A stretch of DNA of 64,000 bases from an uncultured bacterium (lineage in GTDB: Bacteria; Myxococcota_A; Bradymonadia; UBA7976; VGTA01). The stretch is taken from NCBI GenBank assembly GCA_943788935.1, contig CALSSE010000001.1:87269-151268 (forward strand), given 5' to 3'. Made by a program: the position numbers and the translations under genes. The notes under the pieces are model-generated. The model did no database searches. It saw nothing but the letters and a program-made list of their open reading frames with translations, and was not told the origin of the DNA. Of this stretch, positions 3,501 through 64,000 are shown piece after piece (positions within the stretch are counted from its first letter, which is position 1; each line of letters starts with the position of its first letter).

Positions 3501-3605
3501 CCTCTCTGTAATCAGCCTCTCTGTAATCAGCCTCCCTGTAATCAGCCTCTCTGTAATCAGCCTCTCTGTAATCAACCTCTCTGTAATCAGCCTCTCTATA
3601 ATCAG
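3501..3605. repeat. Intergenic 15-bp tandem repeat (CCTCTCTGTAATCAG)x7
   Basis: Seven contiguous units read directly, three carrying one substitution each. Confidence 0.97.
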
Positions 3606-11467: not shown

Positions 11468-11470
11468 AGT

Positions 11471-11527
11471 GTCACCTTGGTTGGAGAGTCACCTTGGTTG
11501 GAGAGTCACCTTGGTTGGAGAGTCACC
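11471..11527. repeat. 17-bp tandem repeat (GTCACCTTGGTTGGAGA)x3 plus partial unit
   Basis: Read directly. The unit duplicates the last codons and TGA stop of the convergent 541-aa gene. Confidence 0.93.
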
Positions 11528-38127: not shown

Positions 38128-38159
38128 TATTAATCCCGATCCTAGTCAGGGTCGCTAGA

Positions 38160-38664: not shown

Positions 38665-38665
38665 G

Positions 38666-40133: not shown

Positions 40134-40265
40134 GTCATCGTCCATATGATCTACCTAAAAATGACAGAGAGTACTTAAACCTATTTCCTACCCTTGAGCG
40201 TAATACCTCAATGTGTGACTTGGGTGATCAACATCACCTTCTCGGGATATACAAAAGGTTAGCTT

Positions 40266-40937: not shown

Positions 40938-42469
40938 GAGATGATTCCAAGACTGACATAACAAACGACCCCATACAGGCTTCTGCGGAAGAGTCACTGA
41001 TCAAAGATGAGTCTTGGGCCTTGATGGTCTCCCTCTATGGAGAAGAGTTCTCTCCGGAGGAGAGGGCGGAGGCCGTATTCATTCTTCAGTCTCCTAGCGC
41101 CATAGAGTGGCGTGAGTTTGGTGGAAACCTCGAAGGTTTGCGCGTCAAAGATGAGTTAAATACGAGTGAAGTGACAGGCCCTATAGGTTTATCAGACCAC
41201 GCCCGAGAGAACATCATGAAGATGGCGACCAATGTAGCTGAACGTCACTCGTCCTCATCGGAAGAGATGTTGACGCATCAGCTCACGACCAAACCTAGTC
41301 ATCTCATAGATTGGTTCTATCGTTATAGTAAAGTGCTGATATTCGTGAGCTCGATCAGCCTGTCCTTCATAAGTCTGTGGGAGTACCGTGAGAGTATCAC
41401 CCAAGAGCCGACTCTTAACTCACCGAAAGTGTTGAGCAGACCCTCTTCGTTTTTGGCTAAAAAGACGCTGAGTAGTGATCTTTCAGCCGATACCGCTGAT
41501 ACTGCTGAGACTGATGCTATCGCTGCTGAACCCCAAACTTCCAAAAACAAGACTGAGATCTCTCTCTTTACAGACAAGGAAGAGATAGAAGAAGAGATAG
41601 ACAAAGAGCAAACAGTTATGGCTCTTCCCTCAGTAAGACGAACAAATAAACGAACAAATGAACGAAGAGTGAGTAGAAAGAGCAGTAGAAAGAGCAGTAG
41701 AAAGAGCAGTAGAGAGAGCAGTAGAAAGAGCAGTAGAAAGAGCAGTAGAAAGAGCAGTAGAAAGAGCAGTAGAGAGAGTAAAGCTCCATCAGCGAAGCGG
41801 GCCCCCGTGCGTTCAGAAAGTCCTTCAAAGACAGCGACTCGCCTATTGAAAGGGGGACGAGGATCAGCGGGTGAGGGTAAGACGACAGGCTCAAGCTCAA
41901 CAGGCTCAAGATCAAAGAAAGCCAAAAGTACAGCTAAGGCGAGGGCTAAGCAGAGAGCGGTCATACCAAAAAGAGCATCAAGAGCCTCGAGGTCTTCTAG
42001 GAGGATCCAAGAAGGTCTTGTAAGTGAGAGAGCTGCGCCACCCTCTTCTGCCTCACAACGAGATGATCGTCCGATGAACAGGCCTTACCCCCCAAGCGAG
42101 ATCGATGATAAAGAGCTTACAGAAGGGTCGACCGATGATGTCGATAGAGCAGAGCCTGTCGGTCCGCCTCCACCTTGGAGCGATACCTTGGCTCTTTGGG
42201 GACGTGGAGAACAAGCGGCTGCCCTTGACCAGTTGATGGCTTGGGTTGAGCGAAATCCATATCATCGTCAGCGAAGAGTCGCCATCAGACTTGGCCAAAG
42301 TTGGGCGAGGGTACTCAAAGACCAAAAGGCCTTGGAGCGTTTAGAGACGATGACCGCTCAAGAGGAGGTCCGCCCACAGAGGAGACGATCAAAGCGAGCA
42401 GCAGACCAACAGAACTATATGAGCCCCTCTTCGCCAAAGATAGAGCCCTCTAAGTCTCGATCCTTCTGA
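40934..42469 (+). CDS. Putative anti-sigma factor (cytoplasmic ASD-like N-terminus, TM helix, basic low-complexity region, TPR-like C-terminus)
   Basis: ATGA-coupled to the ECF sigma gene. LYGEEFSPEERAE resembles an ASD helix; one TM helix (VLIFVSSISLSFISLW). Confidence 0.65.
   Translation: MRDDSKTDITNDPIQASAEESLIKDESWALMVSLYGEEFSPEERAEAVFILQSPSAIEWREFGGNLEGLRVKDELNTSEVTGPIGLSDHARENIMKMATNVAERHSSSSEEMLTHQLTTKPSHLIDWFYRYSKVLIFVSSISLSFISLWEYRESITQEPTLNSPKVLSRPSSFLAKKTLSSDLSADTADTAETDAIAAEPQTSKNKTEISLFTDKEEIEEEIDKEQTVMALPSVRRTNKRTNERRVSRKSSRKSSRKSSRESSRKSSRKSSRKSSRKSSRESKAPSAKRAPVRSESPSKTATRLLKGGRGSAGEGKTTGSSSTGSRSKKAKSTAKARAKQRAVIPKRASRASRSSRRIQEGLVSERAAPPSSASQRDDRPMNRPYPPSEIDDKELTEGSTDDVDRAEPVGPPPPWSDTLALWGRGEQAAALDQLMAWVERNPYHRQRRVAIRLGQSWARVLKDQKALERLETMTAQEEVRPQRRRSKRAADQQNYMSPSSPKIEPSKSRSF
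41672..41779. repeat. Coding 12-bp tandem repeat x9 (AGTAGAAAGAGC) encoding (SRKS)n
   Basis: Nine units counted, two with an AAG to GAG change. Confidence 0.95.
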
Positions 42470-48627: not shown

Positions 48628-49553
48628 GCTCCTCATCGATCGATGCGCTCCTCAGTATCTTTGAGAGAGAGAGAGCAGGTCTTAGCTTTGAAGAGTCACT
48701 CTCTCGTATCGATCATGCTGAGATGTGGGTAAGAATCGCAGTAGGGGATGAAGAGGTCGCTAATCGACTTTATCAGCAGTGCAAAGATTGGCTAGACACT
48801 GTGGAGAGCTCTCCCCTTCACGTAGGATTAGCCATGCACTATATTCGAAGTCTAGGTGCTCGACACCTCCTAGATTCGGTCGCGACGTGGTTATCAACCT
48901 TCATTCACAGTAAGGAGCAAACGTCTAGTCAAGAGCCTAGTCAAGATCAAGATCAGAGCTCTTGTTGGTTCACCACAGTAAATCCCCTCTCTCAATATAC
49001 CCCTGAGGCTACTCCATGGAGAGAGGCGCTAGAGGCTCGGGAGCGTCTCCGCGATGGGGTGAGTCGTTTTGCCCACCTCGCTCCGCTGTTCTCTGAGTCA
49101 AGTTTAGGCTACACTGCCCTTTCTTTGATTGGAGACTTGAGCATCTCAGGACATCCCGCGATGGGGAGAGCGCTCGCTCATGTCAGCGCTCACTTATCAG
49201 CCTCTGTAGGAGACAGGTTTTATACGGAGACCCTGAGCGCAGATGATAAGTTACGACTCTCAGCATGGCTTTGGGACCATCTAGATCTGAAAGCTGACCT
49301 CACTCCCCTTTTACCGGTCGCTGCTAAGTGCCTTAATGGACGCTCCGATCGAGCTGAAGTCTTAGCGATTCGACTCGCGCTACTCTCACCCGAGAGCGCG
49401 ACGCTTATCTGCCAATCATTAGTGTCACTTGAGCTTGAGCAGCGTCAGCGCTTCGCGATGATGCTAGAGAAGCAACTGAAGAGAGTTGGTAAAATAAGGC
49501 TCTGGGTGAGTTGCCGAGAGCTGCTCTTCGATCGCCCAAGAGGTCAGCGGTAA
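48624..49553 (+). CDS. Hypothetical helical protein
   Basis: 309-aa ORF with a GTGA overlap with the upstream stop. Confidence 0.5.
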   Translation: MSSSSIDALLSIFERERAGLSFEESLSRIDHAEMWVRIAVGDEEVANRLYQQCKDWLDTVESSPLHVGLAMHYIRSLGARHLLDSVATWLSTFIHSKEQTSSQEPSQDQDQSSCWFTTVNPLSQYTPEATPWREALEARERLRDGVSRFAHLAPLFSESSLGYTALSLIGDLSISGHPAMGRALAHVSAHLSASVGDRFYTETLSADDKLRLSAWLWDHLDLKADLTPLLPVAAKCLNGRSDRAEVLAIRLALLSPESATLICQSLVSLELEQRQRFAMMLEKQLKRVGKIRLWVSCRELLFDRPRGQR

Positions 49554-51175
49554 CGAAAACCGATCAGTGGATCAATAAAGGGCGCAGCGGTGATCCAAGC
49601 GATGGGGTAGGGAATCCATAATGCTCGCTCTCTATGAATGCGTTGAAAGTGATCCTCTGCCCGTCTTTGGGCATCGGTCATCTCTCTTGAGTCTTCGATG
49701 GTCAGTTCACCGATATGGGCATGAGTCTCCCTATAGAGAGTATGTACATGAGCTAATCTCTCTGCATATTGAATCTCACCTCGAAGCTGGTTGGCCATAG
49801 ATTGGTATTCTGAACAAAGCGAGCGGAGCAGCTCTAGTCTTCCTCCTATATCTCTGCCTCCTATATCTCTGCCTCCTATATCTCTGAAGACTAGCGGTTG
49901 CTTATCCTCACCGAAGGGGATTTGGTCTAAGAGAGGGTGCTCAAGGATAAGGATTGGGCCGCAGAGTTCGGTTAACCGAGCTTGAAGTGAGGAGACATGC
50001 TCGTTGACTTGACTAATGAGTTGATCAGCAGCGATCGGATCAATGTCGTTTAAGCTAGAGTCATCATGTTTATTGATAAGAGGGGAGTGACTTAAGCGTT
50101 GCTGATGGAGTGAGAGGAGCTGATCACGAGTTGTCTGTACTGCATGCAGGGCAGCATCAGCCGCTTGAGCATCGAGTTGGAGACGATAAGACTGAAAAAC
50201 GCCGATCATTTCACAGACCTTTAACGCCACTCGCCGGAGATGCAGTTGAGCCCTCAGAGTAGGTAGATTCTGTTGTGAAACCCATCCTTTACCAAAAGTA
50301 ATCTCTCGCCAAGCGCTGCGCAGCTCTGAGAGACTGCTTATCTCTTGACCATCAGCGAGCGTCATCTGGGCATTCGGAGGTACTTTAGGAATAAAGTCAT
50401 GAATAAATGCTTTAATCTCTGGGCGGTCCCAATAATGTTTAAGCCATTGTGGAGTGGTGAAGAGGTCAATCTTCTCCGCGTAGCTAGTCTCTTCGATCAA
50501 GAAGGCGAGCGCCTCAGCGCGTTGGCCTCGGCGTGAGGGGAGCTGAGGGAGAGCTCGATGACCATCGAGATACACCGAGAAGAGCCACTCCGCCCTCTCT
50601 TCCCCCACTAATCCTGAGGCAGCGAGAGCTTGGGGAGCAGTGAAGGCGATAGCGTGGCTTCGATGAGCACCGGCGGGCCATAGCTCTTCAAATAGCTCAG
50701 CTTCAGCCAGTAGCTCAGGAGCCTCAATATCTCCTAGATAGACGGCGCATGCTTCAGCGAGAGCGTGAAAACTGTGACGCTCTCGTGAGGAGATTAAAGA
50801 TAAGCCTCCACAGAGTCCAAAAGCAGCCCATAAGGCATGAACAGCCTCATGAATTTGATGATAGATCACCTTAACGCTAGATTGTTGAATGCTCTGTAGC
50901 CAACGATGATCACCAAACCCTGCGACACCTAAAGCATAATCAGTGAGGAGAGGAGTCACTCCTGAAAAGGGATTCCATTGTACTAAGAGAGGATCAGTCT
51001 CAGTAAGTACTAACCCTTGATGACCCAGCTGGTCAGCGGCTAGGAGTAGATCATGGAGCGTCTCTGGAAGAGTAAAGTCAAAGCCAATGTTGTTCAGAGA
51101 GTCGCTGATGCTGAGTCGCTGACCTGGGATGAGCACATATTTGGCGGCAAACTCGGAAAAGGCTTCATCGTCCAT
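49544..51175 (-). CDS. Hypothetical protein with HExxH zincin-like motif
   Basis: QIHEAVHALW followed by FHALAEACA (candidate third ligand Glu). Confidence 0.5.
   Translation of the reverse strand: MDDEAFSEFAAKYVLIPGQRLSISDSLNNIGFDFTLPETLHDLLLAADQLGHQGLVLTETDPLLVQWNPFSGVTPLLTDYALGVAGFGDHRWLQSIQQSSVKVIYHQIHEAVHALWAAFGLCGGLSLISSRERHSFHALAEACAVYLGDIEAPELLAEAELFEELWPAGAHRSHAIAFTAPQALAASGLVGEERAEWLFSVYLDGHRALPQLPSRRGQRAEALAFLIEETSYAEKIDLFTTPQWLKHYWDRPEIKAFIHDFIPKVPPNAQMTLADGQEISSLSELRSAWREITFGKGWVSQQNLPTLRAQLHLRRVALKVCEMIGVFQSYRLQLDAQAADAALHAVQTTRDQLLSLHQQRLSHSPLINKHDDSSLNDIDPIAADQLISQVNEHVSSLQARLTELCGPILILEHPLLDQIPFGEDKQPLVFRDIGGRDIGGRDIGGRLELLRSLCSEYQSMANQLRGEIQYAERLAHVHTLYRETHAHIGELTIEDSREMTDAQRRAEDHFQRIHRERALWIPYPIAWITAAPFIDPLIGFRYR
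49842..49886. repeat. Coding 15-bp tandem repeat x3 encoding (RDIGG)3 on the minus strand
   Basis: CCTCCTATATCTCTG x3. Confidence 0.92.
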
Positions 51176-51221
51176 CGCTGCCCCCTTTATCAGGTTTTAC
51201 AAACTTGGATTAGTGGTATAC

Positions 51222-52493
51222 TCAAGGCGTCATGGGTGCGGCGCTACGAATCACTGAAGAGACGGCTGCCCCCCACCATCGCTCAGATTGAACATTAATG
51301 ATAGCCACTTCTCTACTCGCTAGATCGATCACCAAAACCGAGCCGCTCTCATCGAACGCGAAGAGCTTTCCCCTCCAACCAGCGAGACCATAGATACTTG
51401 AATACCCATCGAGAGTGATAAAGTCTTCGACGTCGTTAGGATTAATGGGATTAACGCTAATGATAATATCACTGTTCACTCCCGCCCTCTTCACTGAGGC
51501 GTAGGTGCCGACTTCTTCAATCGAGAAAGCGTCACCGCTAGAGCGCTCATTAGGATAAATACCGAGGAGCTCATCGACAAGTATATCTCGTAAAAAGTCA
51601 AGTCTCCGCCAGCTACCAGTACTATCGATGCCTACCAAAACATCTCTAGGCTCTCCAAAGAATGAACCGGAGACGAAGGTCAACCCATTAAAGTTAGTAA
51701 ATGGCAGACGCGCTTGGTTTCGACACTCGCCGGTTTGAGGATGGCAGAGCCATAAGGTATTAAAAGTGATCGCCCATAAGACCCCTGCTCGATCAATCGC
51801 GATATCAGTGACTTGATGATTTCCGATGGTATCGAAACTAAAGTCTGCCACATGATTCAGGGTGAGACTCTTGACGTCAAGCGCATAGAGAGCGCTCGCG
51901 GTTTGGGCATAGACTGTATCGGGGAGAGCTCTCCCCGGCCACGCAGGGTCCATGGGTGAGGGGTCCCAGAGGTTAGGGATCCTGTCTCCATCGTCATCTG
52001 CTTCACAGACATCGCCCACGCCATTAGCATCGATATCTGATTGTTCGGGATTATACATATCGGGGCAGTTATCTTCTTCATTGGAGAGTCCATCATAGTC
52101 TCTATCATCCATGACAGTTTGCCCTGCTGATGGGGTCTCTGTCGTATCATCACCTCCTACAGCGAGACCTCCCATACCCTCTGAGCCTGAGGTGGTCATT
52201 TCAGTATTAAGGTCGCTTGCCTCTTCATCCCCACCGGCATCTGCACCCGCATCCGCATCCCCACCGGCTCGCTCACCAGCGCCGACTCCCCCCTGTGACC
52301 AAGGGCTCACTTCTCCCTCTGAAGATTCTTGATTTTGGTCACAGGAGAGAGCGGTCATACTGAGAATGAGCGCTACACAGCCTATGAAAAGATCGCTCAT
52401 TAAAAGTGAGGGAGACTTATTTAAGGTGTCAGTTTTATGTTGGATTTTCATTATCATGTTTGCTCGTGTTAAGGGCGGTGGCAAAGTGAGCAA
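51222..52493 (-). CDS. Lipoprotein with TSP3 repeats and C-terminal beta-propeller
   Basis: Lipobox TALSC, TSP3 motif DNCP..YNPEQSDIDANGVGDVC, propeller-like blades. Start uncertain (internal Mets). Confidence 0.72.
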   Translation of the reverse strand: MLTLPPPLTRANMIMKIQHKTDTLNKSPSLLMSDLFIGCVALILSMTALSCDQNQESSEGEVSPWSQGGVGAGERAGGDADAGADAGGDEEASDLNTEMTTSGSEGMGGLAVGGDDTTETPSAGQTVMDDRDYDGLSNEEDNCPDMYNPEQSDIDANGVGDVCEADDDGDRIPNLWDPSPMDPAWPGRALPDTVYAQTASALYALDVKSLTLNHVADFSFDTIGNHQVTDIAIDRAGVLWAITFNTLWLCHPQTGECRNQARLPFTNFNGLTFVSGSFFGEPRDVLVGIDSTGSWRRLDFLRDILVDELLGIYPNERSSGDAFSIEEVGTYASVKRAGVNSDIIISVNPINPNDVEDFITLDGYSSIYGLAGWRGKLFAFDESGSVLVIDLASREVAIINVQSERWWGAAVSSVIRSAAPMTP

Positions 52494-52498
52494 CTATT

Positions 52499-52514
52499 TG
52501 TAACGGTTGTTACA
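52499..52514. promoter_or_regulatory. Palindrome TGTAAC-GGTT-GTTACA (TGTA-N8-TACA); candidate transcription-factor operator
   Basis: Perfect 6-bp arms in an AT-rich region directly upstream of the minus-strand TSP3 lipoprotein gene. Confidence 0.4.
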
Positions 52515-52654
52515 TATAAGATCTTGTACGTTGTTTAGCGCTGTTAAATCAAGGGTAAACGGGAGTGCAGATGAGCGGACTGCCCGAATGAGACAACCAC
52601 ATGGGCTGACTAAGATGAAATATTAAGATAATGAGCAGGGCGTAATGAAGGGGT

Positions 52655-54157
52655 CTATATCCCTAGCGCAGCAGCGCCAGCGACGAGTCCGATTGTGCAT
52701 AGTGCAGTGCCTAAGAAAGTGTTTACGCTGTCTCCAAAAGAAGGAGCGAGGTCAGGGAAAGGAGTATCAGAGAGCTCTCCTGTACCACTTGTATGTCGGT
52801 CTACTCCTTCCAGATGATCCGCCACATAGAACAAGAGTTTTGCCCCCATATGCTTGGACTCTTCATCATCGGTGAGATTCAAGTAGACAGGTAACTGGTG
52901 GGGTCCTATCCGTTGTGTGACCTGCCCACCAAGTGAGTCGCTCACTATCGCAGGTTGCCAATCTCCTCGAGAGAGACCTCCCTCTTCTTGAGGAGTATAT
53001 CTCAAAGCCAATGGCTCGTCCCCCTCTCCTCCTGTGTAATACACTGACAGCGGTTGACCGCTCGATGACCAATTAAGCGCCATCGCTCCATCAGGGCCCA
53101 TGGCATAGTTCAGGCGACCTTGTGAGTCATACTCGATCTCAATGCGTTCATTTCCGGCGCTAAGTGAGCTGAGCTGAGCTCTCTCGTCATAGTGGTAAGT
53201 GATCTCTTGCTCATCTCCACTTTGAATCGCGCTTAAACGACCAAATGTGTCATATAATCGGCGAGTCTCATGTCCTGTCGGGCTAGTATAAACGAGGCGG
53301 GAGCCTCCCTCCTCTTTGGTAAAGCGCCACACTTGCCCCATCGAGTCTTCGATCCTCTCTAGCTGATTATCTACATACGCATAACGATCAACCGAGCCAT
53401 CGGGAGCGTGTCGCTCTGAAAGCTGACAATCAGAATCATAGATAAGATCATAGCAGAGATCTGCTCGGTCACAGTATCGGCTAGGTGACCCACAGTTGCC
53501 TTCCCACTCAAAACGTATCAATGGACGATCAGTCTCGTCTCGTGCGGTGATGAGTTGGCCCTCCTCATTGAGCTCAAAGAGCTCTCTCGCTTCAAGTTCA
53601 GTAGGCTCTATCGGTTCACCTATTTGATCTACTTCACTGATCACCTCTCCGCTCCATGAACGTTCAATAAGCTGCCCTGAGTCATTATAAATATAGTTGT
53701 GTCTTTCGAGTTCTGGACCATCAAGTGTCGCTCGGAGCGTCCATCGTTCTAGCGCTCCGGTCTCATTATAGCGATACTCGATGACTCGACCCGCTCCTCT
53801 CAGATAGCGTACTGTTTTAGTCTGCGAGTCGTATAGCTGAACTTCACACCCTCTTAAACTCTCTCGAGGATTTGTGCCCGCAGGACAGTGCCCTAGCGCC
53901 TCTCCATTTGCCCGATAGAGAAGCTCGTCATGTCGGTGATCTCGACTAACATGAGTGATCAGTCTAGGACTCTGAGCAGCGAGATATGAGAAGCGTGTCG
54001 TCACCTCAGCAGCATTTTGAATCTCTCTTAGACGTCCATTAGGGTCATAACTGAGAGTCGCCTGAAGAACAGGCTCACGCTCAACTCCAGCCTCATCAGC
54101 TTCATAGACGGATACCTCAACGGGGCGTCCTTCACTGTCTGTATTACGACTAATCAA
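52655..54157 (-). CDS. YD/RHS-repeat protein, short and possibly 5'-truncated
   Basis: Repeated Y.YD..G.L units (YNETGAL, YNDSGQL, YDTFGRL, YDERAQL, YDSQGRL). No RHS-core PxxxxDPxG motif seen; hydrophobic C-terminus. Confidence 0.75.
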   Translation of the reverse strand: MISRNTDSEGRPVEVSVYEADEAGVEREPVLQATLSYDPNGRLREIQNAAEVTTRFSYLAAQSPRLITHVSRDHRHDELLYRANGEALGHCPAGTNPRESLRGCEVQLYDSQTKTVRYLRGAGRVIEYRYNETGALERWTLRATLDGPELERHNYIYNDSGQLIERSWSGEVISEVDQIGEPIEPTELEARELFELNEEGQLITARDETDRPLIRFEWEGNCGSPSRYCDRADLCYDLIYDSDCQLSERHAPDGSVDRYAYVDNQLERIEDSMGQVWRFTKEEGGSRLVYTSPTGHETRRLYDTFGRLSAIQSGDEQEITYHYDERAQLSSLSAGNERIEIEYDSQGRLNYAMGPDGAMALNWSSSGQPLSVYYTGGEGDEPLALRYTPQEEGGLSRGDWQPAIVSDSLGGQVTQRIGPHQLPVYLNLTDDEESKHMGAKLLFYVADHLEGVDRHTSGTGELSDTPFPDLAPSFGDSVNTFLGTALCTIGLVAGAAALGI

Positions 54158-54272
54158 TGAGGTTCTAGTTTGCTTTGAGGGCTGTCACTTAGCAATGGAA
54201 TAGAGGAAAGTGCCTCTCCTCCTCATCTTCTTCCTCATCCTCCTTCTCATGAGAGAAGTCTTAATCTACTAT

Positions 54273-56345
54273 TTATTCAGGGTCACAAGCTCCATCACAG
54301 ACTTGGTTGATGAGCCCCTCCTCAATGAAGTCTATAATATGGCGACGATAGCTCTCTAGTCGCCTCACGGTTCCATGAGTTCCGTTATCTTCGGGCTGAG
54401 GTTGGTTCCCTTCTAGGTAAGGCGTGACTTGCTCATCATAGACGATCATGGCGCTAGAGAGGTCGAGCTGATCTCGCTCAGAGAGGGGAGCTTCGAGGGT
54501 GTCTAGACCCCAAATCGGCTTAGGACTAGGAGTCATAAGAGGAATGTTGGCGCTTCGAGCGACCCACTCAGTCACCATATTATGAACTTGACTGTCATGA
54601 ACCGCCATATGCAGTTGAGCTCTCAGCGGACGGCGTCCCTCAAAGCGTGGCGAAATCAGATGATCGACATAGTTGATAGGATCGACGGGGTCTAGCTGTT
54701 CTTGTAGCATCGCTAAATAGAGTTGGAGCTCAAGTGGGTCATCGAACTCTTGAGTGACGAGTAGACCGAGATTATTCCACTGGGTCGCTCTCTGTAGAAA
54801 GTGAGAGAGCCCTGCCCCTCCGACCACTAAGACAGCTTGCTCAATAAGGGTTGAGGTGGCGCTATACAGGTATCCAAATGTTCCTCCATTAGAGATCCCC
54901 ATATACACAATTCGTTGGGGATCAAGCTCGGGGTACTCAAGGCTTAATTGATTACGGAGATACCGGGTCATAATTGTATAATTAATCATAGTTTGCATTA
55001 CCTCCGCTCGAGCGAGGTGAAAGGCATTCAGGTCGCCGGTGAGGGCTCTGATCAATAAGGGGAGGACACCGCTATGCATTCCAAAGTTCATCCCGATCGC
55101 GTTAAAGCGACCACTAACACACAGGTCATTAAAAGAGGACCTCACCGCCTGAGGATGGTCCCCTAGGAACCCATGGCCATAGATGATGATCGGCCTCGGC
55201 TCGTCGACTGTACGCGGTATCGCCATCGAGAATGGGTATTGAGCGACACCTACTGCGATGGGGTGACCGCTCTCATCTCTCTCGAGCCCACGTTCTCCAA
55301 CATAGAGCGGCATCTCAAATACTCCTCGAATGATCCGATTGGTGGCGTCGACATTATCTTCAGTTACCTCATAAGTTGTGAGTGGCCATGAGGCAGCCTG
55401 CTCTTGCATCGTCAACAGATCACCGGTGAGCTGCTCTTCAGAGCGAGTATGAAAGCTCCAAGTCAAGATAACGCTCTCAAAGTCTATTCCGCTTTGCTCA
55501 ATGACAGCTTTTGACTCCATAAACTTAGGAATCTGAATATCTAGGGGTTCAAAACCGGTTATCTCTGTGTTCATGCTCGCCATCTTGAGCGCCATGAAAG
55601 CCTCTGACATCTCGTAGGAAGAGCCTTCGAGATCCTTCAAGTTTGAGCGAATCACGACCGTGTAACTCGCGTTAGCTTTCAGAACGATAGCAGGTCTTAG
55701 GATGAGCGCTCGGCGGAGAGGATCATCACTCATAAGGTCAATCTCTGCGATATGAGGGACCCGAGTTCCGGTTTGATGATGAATAATAAAAGTCGAGGAG
55801 GTATCAGCGATAGACTCTCCTAGGTTCTCTGAACTCGGCAGGGAGAGCCGGTCTATTCCCCTCGGCCAAGCGCTGAGGATCATGGGCAACCGAGAGAAAC
55901 CATCATGACCATCGAACGCCTCTGCTGGCAGAGAGCTGGGCATGAGCTGCTCGGGAATATTGACCTGATAGCCGGTGACCGTCTGAGGAGCCTCTTGGAG
56001 GAAATAGTCTGAGGGATAAGGATATAAGCCGACCTCGGGGTTGAGAGGGTTCCCTCCCTCAATGTTGGGTAAAGAGAAGGGAGGTTCGGCGTCAAGCTCA
56101 ATACCGGTATCAGAGAGACCCTCTCCCATATCTTCGAGGGTGGAGTCTTGGCTTCCCAGTCCTCCGTCAACATCGCCTCCATCAACATCGCCTCCATTAG
56201 GATCAATGACCTCGCGATCGAGAGGAGTCTCTACCGCCTGATCCATTAGGTCTGAGAGAGGGAGTGGCTTGTCTTCACAAGCACAAGCGAGAGAGCCAAT
56301 GATCAGAAAGAGAGAAGGGAGACTTAAGGTCTTGAGAGATCGCAT
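54273..56345 (-). CDS. Lipoprotein with Ig-like N-terminal region and alpha/beta-hydrolase domain
   Basis: Lipobox LACAC, YPYPSDYF and DGFS motifs, YGHGFLG oxyanion region, nucleophile elbow GISNGG. Confidence 0.7.
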   Translation of the reverse strand: MRSLKTLSLPSLFLIIGSLACACEDKPLPLSDLMDQAVETPLDREVIDPNGGDVDGGDVDGGLGSQDSTLEDMGEGLSDTGIELDAEPPFSLPNIEGGNPLNPEVGLYPYPSDYFLQEAPQTVTGYQVNIPEQLMPSSLPAEAFDGHDGFSRLPMILSAWPRGIDRLSLPSSENLGESIADTSSTFIIHHQTGTRVPHIAEIDLMSDDPLRRALILRPAIVLKANASYTVVIRSNLKDLEGSSYEMSEAFMALKMASMNTEITGFEPLDIQIPKFMESKAVIEQSGIDFESVILTWSFHTRSEEQLTGDLLTMQEQAASWPLTTYEVTEDNVDATNRIIRGVFEMPLYVGERGLERDESGHPIAVGVAQYPFSMAIPRTVDEPRPIIIYGHGFLGDHPQAVRSSFNDLCVSGRFNAIGMNFGMHSGVLPLLIRALTGDLNAFHLARAEVMQTMINYTIMTRYLRNQLSLEYPELDPQRIVYMGISNGGTFGYLYSATSTLIEQAVLVVGGAGLSHFLQRATQWNNLGLLVTQEFDDPLELQLYLAMLQEQLDPVDPINYVDHLISPRFEGRRPLRAQLHMAVHDSQVHNMVTEWVARSANIPLMTPSPKPIWGLDTLEAPLSERDQLDLSSAMIVYDEQVTPYLEGNQPQPEDNGTHGTVRRLESYRRHIIDFIEEGLINQVCDGACDPE

Positions 56346-56538: not shown

Positions 56539-59500
56539 TTGCAGTGTGTGTTGCTGCCGAGGGAGATGACCTTAACTTTGAATCGTTCGTTCAATGACAT
56601 GCCCTTCGACCCGACCCCCCACCCGGCTCATTTCGCCTTAGAGAGCTCAACGCCAACCGCAGATGACCCTCTCTGTCTCACTCTTCTTCAAGCGCCTCCT
56701 GGTCGACCTCAGCGTAAGCGAATTGATCGCTATGGCGTTAAACACGCCATCCCTCCTTTGGTATGGGGAGCGCACTATGTGAAGTGCGCTGATTACCAAA
56801 GCCTTGGGGAGTTGATGACCTTCTTGGAATATCAACCCTCATTGATCGTTATTCGAGGGTGTCCGCCTCAAGATAAAGCACATTATGCCCCTAATTTAGA
56901 GAGTCTCAGAGCGTCTATGGATCGACTTGAGCATTCTTGGAGCTTTGCTCAAGCGATCTATCAAGACCTCTCTGCCGCTAGGCGACTGTTTAAGAGACTA
57001 GAGGGAGAAGGTGATTCGACTCTTCAGCGTCGTCAAAAACTCACCGTCCAGATTCAAGAGTACTTTGATGGCTTATACGCGATCGGATGGCTCCCACGAC
57101 GTAAGTCGATCTTCAAAGAGGTACCGAGAAGTTGGGTTTGGCTCGATTTAGATCAAGGTCTAGAGCTTCCCTCTTCTTTTCAGCTTACCCATCGAGCGGA
57201 TCATCACGCGGCGCTTCGATGGATCGTGAGACAAGGGCTCCCCCCCTCTTTTCATGAGGTGAGCTTCGTCGGCCAATGGTCGAGCAGCGCCTTTATGAGA
57301 GGGATGAAAGTGAAGGCTCACTTCGCCTTTCTCTTTGAGCAACCGCTCAGCGAAGCGGCGCTGAAGGCTTGGCATGGGGTGAGAGGGGTCTATAATTGGC
57401 CGGTAAAGTGGGATCCCGCTACCTTTAGAACGGTACAACCTCACTTCACTGCGGCCCCAAAGTTTATCGACACCCCCTCGCCCATAAATGAGCGAACGTT
57501 TCCGGTCAACGGGCTCTATGACTCCGTCCCTCTAGATGACCTCTCGGTGATGAAATTGGAGGTACAGGGTCGATCTCTGAGCGGTGGACGCTCTAAGCGG
57601 CCGGCTCAAGCGACCTCTTCTTCGGTAACATCTAGAAAAGCGAAGCGACACTCTGCTCAATCAACAGCTAAAACCCACTTAGTAGACAAAACCCACTCAG
57701 CAGACAAAACTAATCAACCGGAGGGCGCTGACCACTTTCGACAGGGTCAAGAGGAGACTCTCGTTCGACCACAGTGGCGGGACTATCCCGCAGAGCAGCA
57801 CCCTGAAGTAGAGAGGGTCCTAGAGGTTCAAGTTGAACGATTGAGCCAAGCGGAAGAGGGGCAACGTAATCAAGCTCTCTACCGAGCGGCTTGCGTCCTT
57901 GGCCGATATCAAGGAGGAGGGCTGATCAGTCAAGCTGCGCTTAATCGAGCTCTATTACAAGGAGCAGAGCAATGTGGACTGCTCATTAAAGTGGGTGAGC
58001 CAGAGTGCCTCCGTCAGATCTATAATGGAGTCCGTTGGGGATCTAGTCGTCCCATTAATCCAACGACGGTGAGCTCCGCGCTTTCCCTGCGTGATCGGGG
58101 TTACACCGAACGGCTCTCTGCACGACTCCAACGAGCGATCGTTGAGGCTAAAGAAGACCCTCGTAAAATCCCAGTGATCGCTTTGACCTGTGGAGGAGGA
58201 AAAACCTCTGCGCTGAGAGCGCTGATGGCGGTTGATGCTGCTGCTGGAGAGCCGAGGGTAGTGCTCTGTCGAAATCATCTTATGGCCGCAGAATTTCTAG
58301 AGGCGCTTAATAGCTATGCTGAGACACATCAGCTCAACATTAAGAATAAGGTCCGACTGCTTGAGGGCATGCAGAGGCATTGTCGAGTCCTCAAAGAAGC
58401 CAGCCCTGCGCAGGCGAGCCGACTACACAGCGCGCTCGCTTATGGTCGGCAAGCCCTCTGCGGTCGGGGGAAGTCTCGCTGTGAATATGCGAAGAAGTGT
58501 CAAGGCTCTAAGCGACCGCAGGCTTTGAAGCGAGGAGTGACGATTGCGACCCATGCTATGGGCCCAATCCTTGAGATCCCCGAAGGAGCGGTCATCGTCA
58601 TCGATGAACTCCCGACCCCAGTAAAGGGGGTGAAAATTACCCTCTCGGACCTCGTTCCACTCTCTCGGGAGAGCGAGCAACGTGATTTACCTCTTCTAGA
58701 CTCCTTTCAAGGTTGGCGAGACGCACATCCCCAACTCCATGAGGTATCTAAAGCTGTTCAAGAAGTTTTAGACCAACTCGCTAAGAGCCCAAATCTCGCT
58801 GACCAAGATTATGGCCAAACGCTAGACCCTGAAGAAGCGTTGTTGATCTTCTCATCTCTGATCAATCCTCTCGCCGAGCTTCAGGCGGTTGAGCTGAGCC
58901 CGATGCCTTTACCGCCTCCGCAGAGCACTCGCCGTGGTGTTTGGCCTCAGCTCCCCAAACGTGGGGTGATCGAGGCGCTACTAGAGCTCGCACGAGAGGT
59001 CCCTGATGGAGTGTGGCCAAGCTCTATTTCTGTCCACTGGCGAAGACAAGAGGCCTGGCTAGAGTTGCGCGAAGTCTATGCGCTGCCTCAAGGCTCTTTG
59101 GTGTGTTTGGATGGGACAGCTCATAGAACAGAGCATATTTGGTCTCATCTCGCTAAGAGCTCGCCGTTGAGCCTTGAGAAGTCCTTCACTTCTAAGAGTA
59201 GAGCTCTATCCGAAGGAAGGCCCGTTCGCTCAGGAGACCTACCTTCACCTTATCAGCTCAACCGACGAGCATCGGGAAGAGATTCATTAAACGGTAATGA
59301 TGAGCGCCTCATAGAGCAAGTGCTAGATCGTCCGCAGAGCCATGACACCCCATTGGACAGGGTGAGGTGAGGTGAGGTTGAGGTTGAGGTTGAGGTTGAG
59401 GTTGAGGGGGATCGCTCTCGTGAGGTAGATATTTGGCCGATCGCCGCCGTAGGAGAACCTCCCCTCTTCTCCCGTTGGATCAAAACTCAATCTCTGAGGA

Positions 59501-60369
59501 CCTCTCAACTGATCCGTCGAGATGAGCGAGGGTGGATTCATTGGAGGCAGAGAGCCATTGGCACGCTAAAGAGGATCAGCTTTACCATCGAGAAGGCCGC
59601 TCGTGACGCCCGCCTCTCTACTGGCCAAACCGTTGGGATATTAGCCGCCAAGCATGTGGCTGACTTATTCCGATTCGCGCTCCAGCAAGAGACCCACCCT
59701 CAGTTCTCAGTGAAGAGTCCAATCGTTGATGCCCTGGCGTCAGAGATGAGGAGTGCGCTTGGTCATCGGGAGGTGATCATTGGGCATGTAGGGGCACATG
59801 ATATCGGCTCTAACCTCTTTAATGGCGTTGATCTTTTAGCCATGCTGGGCTCAAGTAAGCCCGATTGGGGATCAACGATTTCAGACTTGAGAGCGATCGG
59901 AGTGCCCGAGGATGAATGCGCTGAGGTGTATACCCATATTGTCTCCGCGAGAGATGTCCAAGGTCTCGCGAGAGCTCGACACCTTCGACGGCGAGGAGTA
60001 GGCTTACTCTATATCGGGGATATGCCTCCCCCTGTTGGACATGACCTCCCCGATGTTCGCTGGAGCCAAGAGGAGGCCGAGCATCTTAAGGTGAATGAGA
60101 CCCTACAAGGGACGGAGGCTCAGGCTTTCAATCTGTTAATGAGCCATGGCTTTATCACCGTCCCCATGCTGCGCACTGAGTTAGAGATGACTCGCGCGCG
60201 CGCAGAATCCGTCTGTAAAAGATTACAGCGTTGCTATGAACTCGTAGAGTGGGTTCATCGTAAGGGGGGGAGAGGTCGAGGGTCGAGAGCTTACGGAATG
60301 CCCGCCCATCACCCAGAGATGAGAGCGTCGGAGAGCCTCAAAGAGAGTGGGCGCTCTGATCATGATTAA
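56539..60369 (+). pseudogene. Primase/polymerase-like + PriCT-like + SF2 helicase + wHTH protein, interrupted by an in-frame TGA at 59368-59370
   Basis: ORFs 56539-59370 and 59656-60369 are in the same frame with no other stop between them. Motifs LDLD, KAHF, VQPHFTAAP; QRNQALYRAAC; TCGGGKT, IATH, VIDE, LDGTA; GSNLF, QGLARAR. Confidence 0.75.
59361..59405. repeat. Compound microsatellite (GGTGA)3(GGTTGA)5
   Basis: Read directly. The pentamer block places a TGA in all three frames; the hexamer block encodes (EV)n. Confidence 0.97.
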
Positions 60370-61075: not shown

Positions 61076-64000
61076 ATGCCATCATGTTACACGTCTAATG
61101 ATCAACATCAGAGACTGACAGTGTCTGTCTCCGCTCTGTTGTTTTGTATTCTATCCCATGTGGTGCTGATCCTCTCTTTTGGGAGCGGCACTGCTTTCGC
61201 CAAGGTCTCTCCTCCTCCGGGACTTGAGGGATGGGCTCCATGGGTAAGTGAGGATTTAGATCATCTACAATGTGCGCAGCGTAGCAGCGGTCATTATTGT
61301 GTGTGGATGAGTGATCTAGAGATCGAAGTTCGAGGTCAGAGCGCGACCCTCAGCTACACCGTTCAGATGGGGAAAAGAGGGCTCGCTCCACTACTCGATG
61401 ATCATCGACTCTCTATCGGTGAGGTGAACTTAATCCATGATGATGGGCAGCCTGAACCACAAGTCGTGATTTGGCGAGATAAACGGGCTTGGGTGGAGCT
61501 CGCTAAAGGCCTGCATCATCTCCGCGCCTCGGTGACTTGGGATGAACAGATTAATTCGATCAAAATACCAAGAGATGTCGCTCGGGTGAAGCTCAGTGAT
61601 CAAGCTGGCGAGCGGTCATGGGTAGAGCGAGATCAAGAGGGGGCGGTCTGGCTAAAAGACCGAGCCACTAGAGCGGACAGCGTGAACAAAGAGCGCAAAA
61701 CCCACCCAGAGGCTACGGCGAAGATCTTTAGAGTTTGGCGAGATGAGATCCCTCTCAAAGTTGAGACTCATCTCCATCTTAATATCTCCGGTAAGCCAAG
61801 AGAGATCGTATTTGGTCAACTCTTACCTGCTGGGGCGATCGCTACTGATCTGGAGAGCGAGCTTGATGTCGATTGGGTCAGAGATGGTCTCAGAGTATAT
61901 GTACGTCCGGGTAAAGCGACGATTAAACTAAAAGCAGTATTCCCAAACCCAGTAACGACGCTGAGCGTGCCTAAAGTGACTGGTGGCGAGGTCGCGCCTC
62001 AAGAGGTTTGGGTGTGGCACAGCCAGGAGCTGTTGCGCAGTGTAAAACTCAGTGGACTTAACGAGGTTGACCCTGATTTTACAGCGCTTCCTGGGAAACT
62101 TCGTGGTGGGACCCATACTTGGTTAGCCTCCGCGGGAGAAAAGCTCGTAATCGAAGAGTTAAAGCGAGGCGTTAGTCGTCGTCCCTCCAATAAGTTAAGA
62201 TTAGAGAGATCCTTATGGCTCGACCTAGATGGGAGTGGTTACTCTGCTCGTGATAAAATTCATGGAGAGTTACGGGCGAGCTCACGGCTCAATGTGCTGA
62301 GCAAAGGGACTCTTGGACGGGCCTCGATGAGTTCGGATGGCCAAACTATCCCTTTGTTGATCACTCAAGATCATCCAGTCTCACAGCGGAACGGAAAAGG
62401 ACTGAACTCATCGGCGGATACTCCCGGACTCGAGGGACTAGAGCTCCGCGTTGAGCGATTAGATCTTGAAGCAGACTTTCGTTACTCGGAGCATAAAGCA
62501 GACATTCCCGCGCTTGATTGGTCAGAGTCAATGGAGTCTTTGATGGTTAAATTAAACCTCCCTCCAGGTTGGAAGCTCTTTACTGTGAGTGGAGCTGATC
62601 TATGCCCTGATGATTGGTTGACATCATGGGCCATGATCGATGTCTTCTTAGTCGCGTTAATCACCATTGGAGCTTATAAGCTCTTCGGCTTATTCTGGTC
62701 TATCATCGCCTTATTATGCTTAGTTCTCTTCCATGGAGATGCAGATTTTCACCTCGAGTGGCTAAGCCTCATCGTGGGATACTTCTTGCTTAGCAATGCT
62801 CTTGCCAATCGTCTATTTATGAAACTTATCTTAGTAGGGTTTTCTTTCGTTACGCTCCAATTTGTGGTCTTAACGCTTGATCTCTGCAAGACAGACATAC
62901 GCGTCGCGATCCACCCACAGGTTGATAAAGAGAACCTCGCGGGTTTTTCTTATGATAGTCATCATATGAATAGAAAGCCGTCAAAAAGTATCTCGCGGAT
63001 GAGTGAGGTACACATAAATGATGTCAGGGGATCTTGGAAAAAAAGTAAATATGGTGAAGTACAGGTTAACCGACAGCTGCAGTTACTCGATCAGAACACC
63101 GTCGTCCAAACTGGACCCGGGATCCCAAACTGGAGTTGGCGAGAACATGATATATATTTTGATAGCCCCGTAGAGTCTGGTCGAGCGATTACGATCACTC
63201 TGATTGAGCCCATTTGGCTTAGGACTCTCAGCGCCTCTCGTGCTCTTTTACTTCTCACCTTTTTGCTCTTCTTCCTCACTCGGCTTAGGAGACTTGATTG
63301 GCGACAACTTCGCGGAGAGCACTCCAATGAGTCGTTGAGTTCTCATAAAGCAGGCGCAACGCTCCTCGTCTTTACACTGATAACTTTAGGGGGAATGATC
63401 TCCGCTTCAGCTCAAGAGTCTTACCCCGTGCAAGACCCCGTGCAAGAACAACAGCAAGTGGTTGACGATGTGAACAACACTTTGAACGAGGGGGTGAAAG
63501 TAAACGAGAACTCGAACACTACTTTAAATCATCAGGTCAATCTTAATCAAACAGCCTCCCTTCGCCATAAGCGTCAAGACAGCTCGGTTAAAGCTAAAGA
63601 TAAGTCGTTGCTCTCTCTTCAGCCGACCGCTGAGTTGATGAAGGAGTGGAGAGAGCGGATGGTTGCTCAGAATCGCTGTCATGGTGAATGTATCTATCTT
63701 GGAGACATGAACCTCTCTCTTAAAGATCGGCTCATCGAGCTCACAGTGATGGTTCATGCAGAGCGCGATAGCTTTGTTATATTACCGGGAACGATCAATG
63801 ATGTTCAGTGGAAGGTAGTGACCGTAAAAGAGAGCTCTTTACCGCTTCGAGTAGAGATCGGTAAGGGAGATACTTCGGGGGGATACATCACCGCTCGAGT
63901 TCCTCGCGGCGTTCATTTGCTAAAGGCTTGGGGGTCAGTCTTAGAGGTCAACAGCTTTGACTTGGCGATTCATGATCTCCCCAAGAGGCTTGAGGTCTCT
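61076..64000 (+). CDS. Very large conserved hypothetical membrane/secreted protein, 3'-truncated by the window edge
   Basis: AAGGA SD and ATG 61076. The frame was open wherever checked (61076-61600, 61742, 63002, 63902-64000) and is absent from the track, consistent with no stop in the window. Signal peptide, WAPWV...C...CVW, LNLPPGWKL, a TM cluster, VQTGPGIPNWSW. Confidence 0.8.
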   Translation, partial: MPSCYTSNDQHQRLTVSVSALLFCILSHVVLILSFGSGTAFAKVSPPPGLEGWAPWVSEDLDHLQCAQRSSGHYCVWMSDLEIEVRGQSATLSYTVQMGKRGLAPLLDDHRLSIGEVNLIHDDGQPEPQVVIWRDKRAWVELAKGLHHLRASVTWDEQINSIKIPRDVARVKLSDQAGERSWVERDQEGAVWLKDRATRADSVNKERKTHPEATAKIFRVWRDEIPLKVETHLHLNISGKPREIVFGQLLPAGAIATDLESELDVDWVRDGLRVYVRPGKATIKLKAVFPNPVTTLSVPKVTGGEVAPQEVWVWHSQELLRSVKLSGLNEVDPDFTALPGKLRGGTHTWLASAGEKLVIEELKRGVSRRPSNKLRLERSLWLDLDGSGYSARDKIHGELRASSRLNVLSKGTLGRASMSSDGQTIPLLITQDHPVSQRNGKGLNSSADTPGLEGLELRVERLDLEADFRYSEHKADIPALDWSESMESLMVKLNLPPGWKLFTVSGADLCPDDWLTSWAMIDVFLVALITIGAYKLFGLFWSIIALLCLVLFHGDADFHLEWLSLIVGYFLLSNALANRLFMKLILVGFSFVTLQFVVLTLDLCKTDIRVAIHPQVDKENLAGFSYDSHHMNRKPSKSISRMSEVHINDVRGSWKKSKYGEVQVNRQLQLLDQNTVVQTGPGIPNWSWREHDIYFDSPVESGRAITITLIEPIWLRTLSASRALLLLTFLLFFLTRLRRLDWRQLRGEHSNESLSSHKAGATLLVFTLITLGGMISASAQESYPVQDPVQEQQQVVDDVNNTLNEGVKVNENSNTTLNHQVNLNQTASLRHKRQDSSVKAKDKSLLSLQPTAELMKEWRERMVAQNRCHGECIYLGDMNLSLKDRLIELTVMVHAERDSFVILPGTINDVQWKVVTVKESSLPLRVEIGKGDTSGGYITARVPRGVHLLKAWGSVLEVNSFDLAIHDLPKRLEVS

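What the first reader, a model, noticed from the sequence alone, without database searches (positions are those of the whole stretch)
59341..59660. Compound microsatellite acting as an all-frame stop switch inside the helicase
(GGTGA)3 is net in-frame (15 bp) but places a TGA in every frame, and it abuts (GGTTGA)5, which encodes harmless EV repeats. Deleting the three pentamers, or restoring one T in each, reopens the full protein. One or two pentamers would frameshift or stop it. The break falls in a low-complexity insert between helicase motif III and motif IV, so the OFF state would yield primase + RecA1 only. No in-frame start codon precedes the motif IV region, which argues against a separate downstream gene. 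This is a candidate SSR phase-variation switch toggling primase-only vs primase-helicase products; a basecalling error in the repeat is the main alternative.
Basis: partly seen in the sequence, partly recalled or inferred. Interest (0 to 1): 0.72.

Follow-up and report, generated by a model that had tools for sequence, protein, structure and literature searches.

The report
Hypervariable linker repeat with one-off stop
A real, fast-changing six-base repeat codes a floppy linker inside a large primase-helicase gene of an uncultured marine bacterium. The stop codon this window carries in it is seen in no other sample, so it looks like an assembly error or a rare dead allele, not an on/off switch.

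Summary
(GGTGA)3 at 59361-59375 abuts (GGTTGA)5 at 59376-59405. It puts the only in-frame stop (TGA 59368-59370) into a reading frame that is otherwise open from 56539 to 60369.

Full-length homologues of 1123-1250 aa show this is one gene. It has an N-terminal primase-like domain and a DinG/XPD-like iron-sulfur helicase. The stop lies in a lineage-specific, dispensable linker at the junction of the two motor domains.

The switch reading is not supported. In six other haplotype samples (one independent assembly, four short-read metagenomes, one metatranscriptome) the tract differs from the window, but every version is built of hexamers and is open. No pentamer copy-number variant was seen. The only ON state is zero pentamers. 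No indexed public run holds the words specific to the stop allele.

Variation downstream of the stop is 15 synonymous to 0 nonsynonymous, and the window keeps 101 of 102 family-invariant residues there. TGA is an ordinary stop elsewhere in the window, and no SECIS element, hairpin, promoter or usable restart codon was found.

My estimates: consensus error at a multi-allelic repeat about 55%, rare recent null allele about 30%, true phase variation about 7%. Raw reads of the source were not available, so error versus real null allele remains open.

The parts
56566..59370 (+). Upstream part of the gene. It is 934 aa from ATG 56566; the frame is open from TTG 56539. It holds the primase-like domain, a PriCT-like helical region, and helicase motor domain 1 with the FeS and Arch inserts, and ends at the in-frame TGA.
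   Evidence: L001's gene call starts at the equivalent ATG.
56647..57600 (+). N-terminal primase-like (AEP/replication-initiator-like) domain, with invariant WVWLDLD, SFVGQWSSSAF, KAHFAF and TVQPHFTA motifs.
   Evidence: PHROG 16950 'DNA primase' E 5e-10 to 9e-14. Model pLDDT 86. BFVD hits to phage replication origin-binding and primase-helicase proteins E 4.4e-7, TM 0.50. No significant PDB hit.
58192..58608 (+). Walker A (GGGKT, 58192-58206), four invariant cysteines (C606, C632, C639, C645; 58381-58500) and Walker B DE (58603-58608). This is the FeS-type insert within motor domain 1.
   Evidence: Invariant columns of A1. Foldseek to CasDinG, DinG and XPD. The CCCC motif between strands of MD1 defines DinG-like proteins (PMC11981726).
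59152..59421 (+). Lineage-specific low-complexity linker of about 90 aa between the LDGTA strand of motor domain 1 and the IAAVG strand of motor domain 2. It is absent from the more distant homologues.
   Evidence: Alignment A1 columns about 960-1053. Nonsynonymous polymorphisms cluster here.
59361..59375 (+). (GGTGA)3: three units each one base short of the hexamer. They carry TGA in all three frames. The in-frame stop is 59368-59370.
   Evidence: Not found in any other haplotype sample.
59376..59405 (+). (GGTTGA)5, read as (GTT GAG)n = (Val-Glu)n. This is the hypervariable hexanucleotide array.
   Evidence: Allele differences in L001, X1, X2, X4, X8 and X49.
59371..60369 (+). Downstream 332 codons in the same frame: the rest of the linker, helicase motor domain 2 (GILAAKH, GHVGAHDIGSNL...GSSKPDWG, SARDVQxLARARHLRR) and a C-terminal domain. 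It ends at TAA 60367-60369.
   Evidence: 101 of 102 family-invariant columns are retained, and 15 of 15 listed polymorphisms are synonymous.
59656..59658 (+). First canonical in-frame start codon (GTG) after the stop. A product starting here would lack 26 invariant positions of motor domain 2.

Best explanation
Shown: the tract is a genuine, hypermutable, in-frame hexanucleotide repeat. Its units are GGTTGA with GGGTGA and TGGTGA variants, read as Val-Glu or Gly-Glu. It codes a disordered acidic linker at the junction of the two motor domains of one roughly 1270-aa primase-like plus DinG/XPD-like FeS helicase protein. It varies among near-identical haplotypes, and every other version recovered is open.

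Inferred: slippage or misalignment in the array changes unit number and unit type, and this is tolerated because the linker is dispensable. The normal state of the gene is open.

Inferred, about 55%: the stop-bearing (GGTGA)3 version in this window is a consensus collapse at a multi-allelic repeat. Co-existing alleles carry GGTTGA, GGGTGA or TGGTGA at the same unit. Each adds its sixth base at a different place to the shared GGTGA core. If no single insertion reaches a majority, the consensus drops all of them, leaving GGTGA. This accounts for the loss of exactly one base per unit, the net in-frame length, the uniqueness of the allele, and the absence of its words from short-read data. On this reading it is not a regulatory switch.
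For: One gene: homologues of 1123-1250 aa span both halves. The linker is absent in P0008-P0015.

Hypervariable array: flanks are 99.7-100% identical, yet the tract differs in every sample.
- L001: TGGTGA(GGTTGA)3GGGTGA(GGTTGA)4, 54 nt against 45 in the window.
- X1: pure (GGTTGA), at least 5 units.
- X2 and RNA run X49: GGGTGA(GGTTGA)n.
- X4: TGGTGA GGTTGA GGGTGA....
- X8: 24 nt shorter.
All of these are open in frame.

The window matches X1 over about 20 kb with 2 substitutions and no indel outside the tract. No indexed run holds the stop-specific words; the top share of 0.5 comes from generic repeat words. Contigs of X3 and X48, identical to the window in the flanks, stop at 59357 and 59360.

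Purifying selection: 15 synonymous to 0 nonsynonymous sites downstream and 30 to 11 upstream. 101 of 102 and 198 of 199 invariant columns are kept.

The only other disruption of this gene is also a single-base indel in a run: CC to CCC at 58911 in L001. Contig_9135, the record behind L001, has a long-read-assembler style name. That indel is absent from contigs X1-X4.
Against: I could not see raw reads of the window's own source, and its sequencing platform is unknown. If it is a de Bruijn short-read assembly, the (GGTGA)3 words must exist in reads and the allele is real.

The window is otherwise indel-free against short-read contigs, so it is not a generally error-prone assembly.

A perfect pentamer triplet is also what slippage after a one-base deletion would produce.

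Logan contigs drop rare variants, and most break inside the array. They show presence, not absence. Full array lengths are known only for the window, L001 and X8.

In the alleles seen, the second unit is GGTTGA in all of them, so the collapse model needs register shifts between alleles of different length.
Confidence: 0.55

Rival explanations
1. Real but incidental null allele. In this haplotype the hypermutable array suffered a one-base loss followed by pentamer slippage, or three one-base losses. This created a premature UGA that truncates the protein after motor domain 1. It would be a recent, probably deleterious or low-frequency loss-of-function variant, not a regulated state.
For: The window is clean elsewhere, so a local error needs a special cause. 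A perfect (GGTGA)3 looks like slippage. The array clearly mutates far faster than its flanks. The downstream part is undecayed, as expected for a very recent lesion. A second haplotype (L001) also carries a disruption of the same gene.
Against: The allele and its words were found in no other sample or indexed run. It needs about three mutational steps through frameshifted intermediates on a haplotype only 0-2 substitutions per 20 kb from open ones. Strong purifying selection on the gene in the population (15:0 downstream) argues against tolerated nulls.
Confidence: 0.3
2. True contingency (phase-variable) locus. Slippage in the compound repeat toggles cells between full-length primase-helicase and a truncated primase plus motor-domain-1 product.
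For: The tract is hypermutable, and both open and stopped versions exist among near-identical haplotypes. A five-base unit is the kind that shifts frame. A second OFF lesion exists in L001. The gene is covered on both sides of the tract in a metatranscriptome.
Against: All observed variation is in hexamer units and in frame. No allele with 1, 2 or 4 pentamers was seen. By enumeration only zero pentamers is ON, so there is no one-step reversible path. Three copies is short for a slippage tract (my own knowledge of contingency loci). The OFF allele is seen once only. The RNA contig carries an open allele. Homologues have non-repetitive linkers, so the arrangement is not conserved.
Confidence: 0.07
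3. The UGA is decoded. Selenocysteine, near-cognate readthrough or a suppressor would make a full-length protein from this allele, and selection would explain why the 15 nt stay in frame.
For: The net in-frame length and the perfectly preserved downstream domain would be explained. UGA is the leakiest stop codon (my own knowledge).
Against: TGA ends 14 other long ORFs in the window. No Rfam match near gathering score, including SECIS families. Folding of 59360-59470 is no better than shuffles (z = 0.74). By inspection, +1 or -1 shifts and AGG-to-AGG hops do not return to the downstream frame. No other haplotype has a stop here.
Confidence: 0.03
4. Split gene. Motor domain 2 is translated separately after the stop by reinitiation, and the two pieces reassemble.
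For: SD-like GAGG strings abound in the tract. An in-frame ATT at 59431, preceded by GAGGT, sits just before the conserved DIWPIAAVG block (by inspection).
Against: There is no in-frame ATG, GTG or TTG before 59656, which lies past 26 invariant positions. No promoter-like site was found. All 14 homologues are single polypeptides. No split DinG/XPD helicase is described in the 2025 review of the family.
Confidence: 0.03

Closest known systems
In-frame coding tandem repeats (VNTR/SSR) in disordered linkers, e.g. the Ser-Asp dipeptide repeat region of staphylococcal ClfA/Sdr proteins (my own knowledge)
   Same: The unit is a multiple of three bases and codes a dipeptide repeat. The repeat sits in a spacer dispensable for the fold. 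It is polymorphic among near-identical strains through slippage. The same window holds many other period-12/15/18 coding repeats.
   Different: Here the repeat lies inside a cytoplasmic DNA enzyme, between the two motor domains of a helicase, rather than in a surface protein stalk. One recorded allele carries a stop.
SSR contingency loci of Neisseria, Haemophilus and Campylobacter, e.g. the CTCTT pentamer in opa genes and tetranucleotide repeats in mod and lic genes (my own knowledge)
   Same: An intragenic short repeat with a unit not divisible by three (GGTGA) that can abolish the reading frame. The tract is hypermutable.
   Different: There are only three pentamer copies. No copy-number variation of the pentamer was seen. 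Every copy number of one or more is OFF, so no alternating ON/OFF series exists. The observed variation is in hexamers and in frame. The gene is not a surface or restriction-modification gene.
DinG/XPD-like SF2 helicases (EcDinG, CasDinG, ExoDinG, XPD; review PMC11981726)
   Same: Two motor domains. Four invariant cysteines between Walker A and Walker B. Foldseek top hits are CasDinG, S. aureus DinG and XPD, with E 2.5e-10 to 1e-6.
   Different: No Pfam or NCBIfam model recognises it. It carries an N-terminal primase-like domain, an architecture the 2025 review does not mention ('primase' occurs 0 times). In this lineage it also has a roughly 90-aa insert at the junction of the two motor domains.
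Phage and plasmid primase-helicase fusions with AEP or PriCT modules (PHROG 16950; BFVD hits such as the Salmonella phage falkor 'replication origin binding protein')
   Same: The N-terminal domain matches these by profile (E 5e-10 to 9e-14) and by predicted fold (E 4.4e-7, TM 0.50). A primase-type domain precedes an NTPase or helicase in one polypeptide.
   Different: The helicase partner is DinG/XPD-like SF2, not an SF3, SF4 or D5-type ATPase. The gene sits among chromosomal housekeeping genes in relatives, with no integrase or phage genes nearby.

Membership tests
SSR phase-variable (contingency) locus | Intragenic or promoter repeat whose unit is not a multiple of three, long enough to slip | tested here: inconclusive
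   The (GGTGA) unit is 5 nt, but only 3 copies are present. The long part of the array is hexameric.
SSR phase-variable (contingency) locus | Copy-number polymorphism of that unit within or between populations that alternates ON and OFF frames | tested here: not met
   Six other haplotype samples show only hexamer-unit alleles, all open. No pentamer number other than 3 was seen. By enumeration only n=0 is ON.
SSR phase-variable (contingency) locus | Reversible high-frequency switching within a clonal lineage | not testable with these tools
   The organism is uncultured. Only assembled contigs of public runs were available, not raw reads.
In-frame coding SSR/VNTR in a dispensable linker | Unit a multiple of three, read in frame as a low-complexity peptide | tested here: met
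   GGTTGA is read as GTT GAG, i.e. (Val-Glu)n. Variant units GGGTGA and TGGTGA give Gly-Glu.
In-frame coding SSR/VNTR in a dispensable linker | Length or unit polymorphism among near-identical haplotypes that preserves the frame | tested here: met
   Window 45 nt, L001 54 nt, X8 24 nt shorter. X1, X2, X4 and X49 differ in their first units. Flanks are 99.7-100% identical.
In-frame coding SSR/VNTR in a dispensable linker | Host segment not conserved in homologues | tested here: met
   The linker columns are gaps in P0008-P0013 and unalignable among closer homologues. Homologue linkers are not repetitive.
DinG/XPD-like SF2 helicase | Two RecA-like motor domains with Walker A and Walker B | tested here: met
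   Invariant GGGKT and DE. Foldseek hits to CasDinG, DinG and XPD at E 2.5e-10, probability 1.0, target TM 0.45. The model has moderate confidence (pLDDT 67.7).
DinG/XPD-like SF2 helicase | FeS domain with a CCCC motif inserted in motor domain 1 | tested here: met
   C606, C632, C639 and C645 are invariant in 12 sequences, between Walker A and Walker B. The family definition is from PMC11981726. Cluster binding itself was not tested.
DinG/XPD-like SF2 helicase | Arch domain inserted in motor domain 1 | tested here: inconclusive
   A helical insert of about 130 aa lies between Walker B and LDGTA in the model. It was not aligned separately to known Arch domains.
AEP-type primase / prim-pol | Recognisable AEP-like catalytic fold | tested here: inconclusive
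   PHROG 16950 'DNA primase' E 5e-10 to 9e-14. BFVD phage replication proteins E 4.4e-7. PDB hits to ASFV PrimPol and HSV primase reach only E 0.26-1. No Pfam hit.
AEP-type primase / prim-pol | Catalytic acidic DxD motif and conserved histidine | tested here: inconclusive
   Invariant D194 and D196 (LDLD), H252 and H293 exist. Their placement in an active site was not checked.
Bacterial selenoprotein / programmed UGA recoding | SECIS-type stem-loop just 3' of the UGA, or another stimulatory structure | tested here: not met
   No Rfam match near gathering score. The fold z-score is 0.74. TGA is a normal stop in 14 other ORFs.

The most novel reading that the evidence does not exclude
The compound repeat is a true contingency locus in an uncultured marine Myxococcota-like bacterium. 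A hypermutable array at the junction of the two helicase motor domains stochastically yields cells that make only the primase plus motor-domain-1 fragment of a primase-DinG fusion. L001's frameshift would be a second OFF route, so the population would be kept heterogeneous for a DNA replication, repair or defence enzyme.
Probability: 0.07. Interest if true: 0.6.

Novelty: new member of a known kind. Interest (0 to 1): 0.22.

Why it matters
As a switch it would have been unusual, because phase variation is not expected in a cytoplasmic primase-helicase. The evidence points instead to an ordinary hypervariable coding repeat with one defective or mis-assembled copy, so the finding itself matters little.

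Two by-products are of some use. First, it is a concrete example of how a multi-allelic repeat in a metagenome can yield a stop codon that looks designed. This is relevant to anyone calling pseudogenes or recoding events in MAGs. Second, the host gene belongs to an undescribed, Pfam-less family that fuses a primase-like domain to a DinG/XPD-type FeS helicase. The family is conserved under strong purifying selection in a marine clade.

Tried and rejected
- Alternative genetic code: rejected. TGA ends 14 other long ORFs.
- SECIS or stimulatory RNA: nothing found.
- Frameshift or hopping: by inspection, the +1 frame after the stop runs into TAG within about 60 nt. Every downstream AGG landing site leads to TGA or to the +1 frame, so neither restores the downstream frame.
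- Internal promoter or terminator: none.
- Separate downstream gene: no canonical start before 59656.
- Pfam, NCBIfam and PDB sequence searches gave no significant hits on the protein.
- Search for the same stop allele elsewhere:
  - Exact N-terminal product is not on record.
  - Two JGI metagenome scans with flank and tract patterns found 0 hits.
  - The run index holds no run with the stop-specific words.
  - The Nanopore-library filter returned nothing.
  - Narrow lay of X3, X1, X2, X4, X7, X48, X49, X6 and X10 showed no contig with the pentamers.
- My first reading of the X1 allele as GGTGGA (from one search's gapped alignment) was an alignment artefact. It was corrected to pure (GGTTGA)n with the loose-end sequence.
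- Cyanobacterial origin, suggested by GATCGC motifs: rejected. Homologues are in Myxococcales/Deltaproteobacteria MAGs, and GCGATCGC is only modestly enriched.
Full report
**Observation.**

The sequence is as described. GGTGAGGTGAGGTGA occupies 59361-59375, followed by five perfect GGTTGA units at 59376-59405 and then GGGGGATCGC. TRF reports one period-6 array at 59359-59407 with 4% indels. Neither motif occurs in any of 100 dinucleotide-preserving shuffles.

The three TGAs fall in the three frames. The one at 59368-59370 is the only stop in a frame that otherwise runs from 56539 to 60369. The list of ORFs shows a 943-aa ORF and a 237-aa ORF in the same frame. The latter begins at the first canonical start after the stop, GTG 59656.

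The genome uses TGA as an ordinary stop: it ends 14 other ORFs of at least 250 codons in the window.

**One gene, and what it encodes.**

A search with the joined frame found 14 homologues of 1123-1250 aa that cover both halves, at 40-71% identity. They come from marine metagenomes and Myxococcales/Deltaproteobacteria MAGs. No Pfam, NCBIfam or PDB-sequence match is significant.

- Helicase part. A model of homologue P0010 (pLDDT 67.7, good over the helicase part) hits CasDinG, S. aureus DinG and XPD with Foldseek E 2.5e-10 to 1e-6. The alignment shows an invariant GGGKT, four invariant cysteines (C606, C632, C639, C645), an invariant DE, LDGTA, and then GILAAKH, GHVGAHDIGSNL...GSSKPDWG and ARDVQxLARARHLRR. 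This order is that of DinG-like proteins, with the CCCC FeS insert in motor domain 1 (PMC11981726).
- N-terminal part. About 320 residues match PHROG 16950 'DNA primase' (E 5e-10 to 9e-14). A confident model (pLDDT 86) resembles predicted phage replication origin-binding and primase-helicase proteins (E 4.4e-7, TM 0.50). PDB matches to AEP primases are only weak.

In relatives the gene lies among chromosomal genes (LepA, signal peptidase, RuvX, aminotransferases), with no integrase or phage genes nearby.

**Where the stop lies.**

The stop sits in a segment of about 90 aa between the LDGTA strand and the IAAVG strand. That segment is absent from the more distant homologues and unalignable among the closer ones. 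In close homologues it is not repetitive at the DNA level.

It is therefore a dispensable, lineage-specific linker at the junction of the two motor domains. A product ending at the stop would lack motor domain 2. A restart at GTG 59656 would lack 26 invariant positions.

**Population evidence.**

An independent ENA contig (L001) is 99.7% identical over 13.4 kb. It carries ACAG TGGTGA (GGTTGA)3 GGGTGA (GGTTGA)4, which is 54 nt instead of 45 and is open in frame (DSGEVEVEVEGEVEVEVEVEGD). It has an extra C at window 58911 (CC to CCC) that frameshifts the gene upstream.

Logan contigs of short-read marine metagenomes gave these 5' tract versions:

| Sample | Tract as recovered |
|---|---|
| X1 (depth 8.3) | ATAG (GGTTGA), at least 5 units: the pure form |
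| X2 | ACAG GGGTGA (GGTTGA)n |
| X4 | ACAG TGGTGA GGTTGA GGGTGA GGTTGA... |
| X8 (a lineage about 96% identical) | spans the array, 24 nt shorter |
| X49 (Illumina metatranscriptome, same study) | same version as X2; contigs on both sides of the tract at similar depth |

For X49, DNA carry-over cannot be excluded.

All of these read through without a stop. Contigs of X3 and X48, identical to the window in the flanks, simply end at 59357 and 59360. No indexed run holds the sampled words specific for the pentamer region. The exact N-terminal product is on no other contig, and two JGI scans found nothing.

Over about 20 kb the window differs from X1 by two substitutions and, outside the tract, no indel. 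So the array mutates, or is mis-called, far more than its surroundings, and the assembly is otherwise clean.

**Selection.**

Among the polymorphic sites that searches list against sister lineages, 15 of 15 downstream of the stop are synonymous. Upstream, 30 of 41 are synonymous, and the nonsynonymous ones cluster in the two low-complexity linkers. print only part of the variant sites, so these counts are a sample.

The window keeps 101 of 102 downstream and 198 of 199 upstream columns that are invariant in the 11 homologues. The two exceptions are conservative: A to V and I to V. The gene is thus under strong purifying selection in the population and shows no decay in the window.

**Interpretation.**

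What is firmly shown:
- a hypervariable in-frame hexanucleotide array coding a (Val/Gly-Glu)n linker;
- the open state as the norm;
- the stop allele seen only in this window.

The phase-variation reading fails its main tests.
- Variation is in hexamers and in frame.
- No other pentamer number is seen.
- By enumeration, one or two pentamers shift the frame and three or more place a TGA in every frame. Only zero is ON, so there is no stepwise reversible path.

Recoding is unsupported: there is no SECIS or other Rfam match, the fold is no better than shuffles, and by inspection frameshifts and hops do not regain the frame. No promoter-like site or canonical restart supports a split gene.

**Artefact or real null allele.**

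I cannot decide this without raw reads. I lean to artefact (about 55%) for four reasons.
1. Each of the three units lacks exactly one base relative to hexamers. Those hexamers differ in the population in where the sixth base sits (GGTTGA, GGGTGA, TGGTGA). A majority-rule long-read consensus of mixed alleles would drop all three minority insertions and leave GGTGA.
2. The only other lesion in this gene, in L001, is likewise a single-base run-length change. It occurs in a contig whose name style suggests a long-read assembler, and it is absent from the short-read contigs.
3. Two null alleles among about seven haplotypes sit badly with 15:0 purifying selection.
4. No short-read data set contains the allele's words.

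Against this, the window is otherwise indel-free. A perfect pentamer triplet is also what slippage would make. If the contig came from a de Bruijn assembly, the allele must be in reads. I give a real, recent, incidental null allele about 30%.

**Comparison and novelty.**

The tract behaves like the many in-frame coding tandem repeats known in bacteria, and like the 20-odd others in this same window. It does not behave like a contingency locus.

The host protein is the more novel item. A primase-like domain fused to a DinG/XPD-type FeS helicase is not among the DinG-like subgroups reviewed in 2025: the word 'primase' is absent from that review. The family has no Pfam model.

**Limits.**

- Logan contigs show presence, not absence, and most break inside the array.
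- Full array lengths are known only for the window, L001 and X8.

Noticed in passing
window 56566-60369 and homologues P0001, P0003-P0015: The host gene belongs to a small family with no Pfam or NCBIfam model: 15 hits among 5.8 billion proteins, all from marine or aquatic Myxococcota-like MAGs and metagenomes. It fuses a primase-like N-terminal domain and a PriCT-like region to a DinG/XPD-type helicase with four invariant cysteines. This architecture is not mentioned in the 2025 review of DinG-like proteins.
   Followed up: partly
L001 8347 (window 58911): The independent 99.7%-identical contig has an extra C (CC to CCC) that frameshifts the same gene about 450 nt upstream of the repeat. It is absent from short-read contigs X1-X4. 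It may be a second null allele or a second consensus error.
   Followed up: partly
whole window, e.g. 17136-17404, 26644-27056, 27418-27681, 41672-41778, 3499-3605, 11463-11527: The window is very rich in tandem repeats: 26 TRF rows in 64 kb. There are long period-12 and period-15 arrays of up to 27 copies inside ORFs, and period-11/14/15/17 arrays that look intergenic.
   Followed up: no
window about 57560-57750: A second low-complexity linker lies in the same protein, between the primase-like domain and the PriCT-like region. It contains an 18-nt repeat (57670-57710). Five of the eleven nonsynonymous polymorphisms upstream of the stop cluster here.
   Followed up: partly
window about 61086-64000 (L001 10521-14442): A very large gene on the + strand starts about 140 nt after the GNAT gene and runs off the window's end. 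It is at least 1509 aa in L001's record and has no Pfam hit on record.
   Followed up: no
window 38130-40260: About 2 kb has only short ORFs (219 aa at most) on either strand, between well-filled coding regions. It was not examined for RNA genes or gene remnants.
   Followed up: no
window 742, 1662, 18194, 18743, 34516, 35101, 61835: The palindrome GCGATCGC occurs 7 times against 1.2 expected from shuffles. This is a mild HIP1-like enrichment in a genome that is not cyanobacterial.
   Followed up: no
window 49544-56345 (- strand): Upstream neighbours are large secreted-type proteins: RHS repeat, thrombospondin type 3 repeat, and 690-aa and 543-aa proteins with no family. Relatives of the helicase gene have quite different neighbours, so the gene's context is not conserved.
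   Followed up: partly
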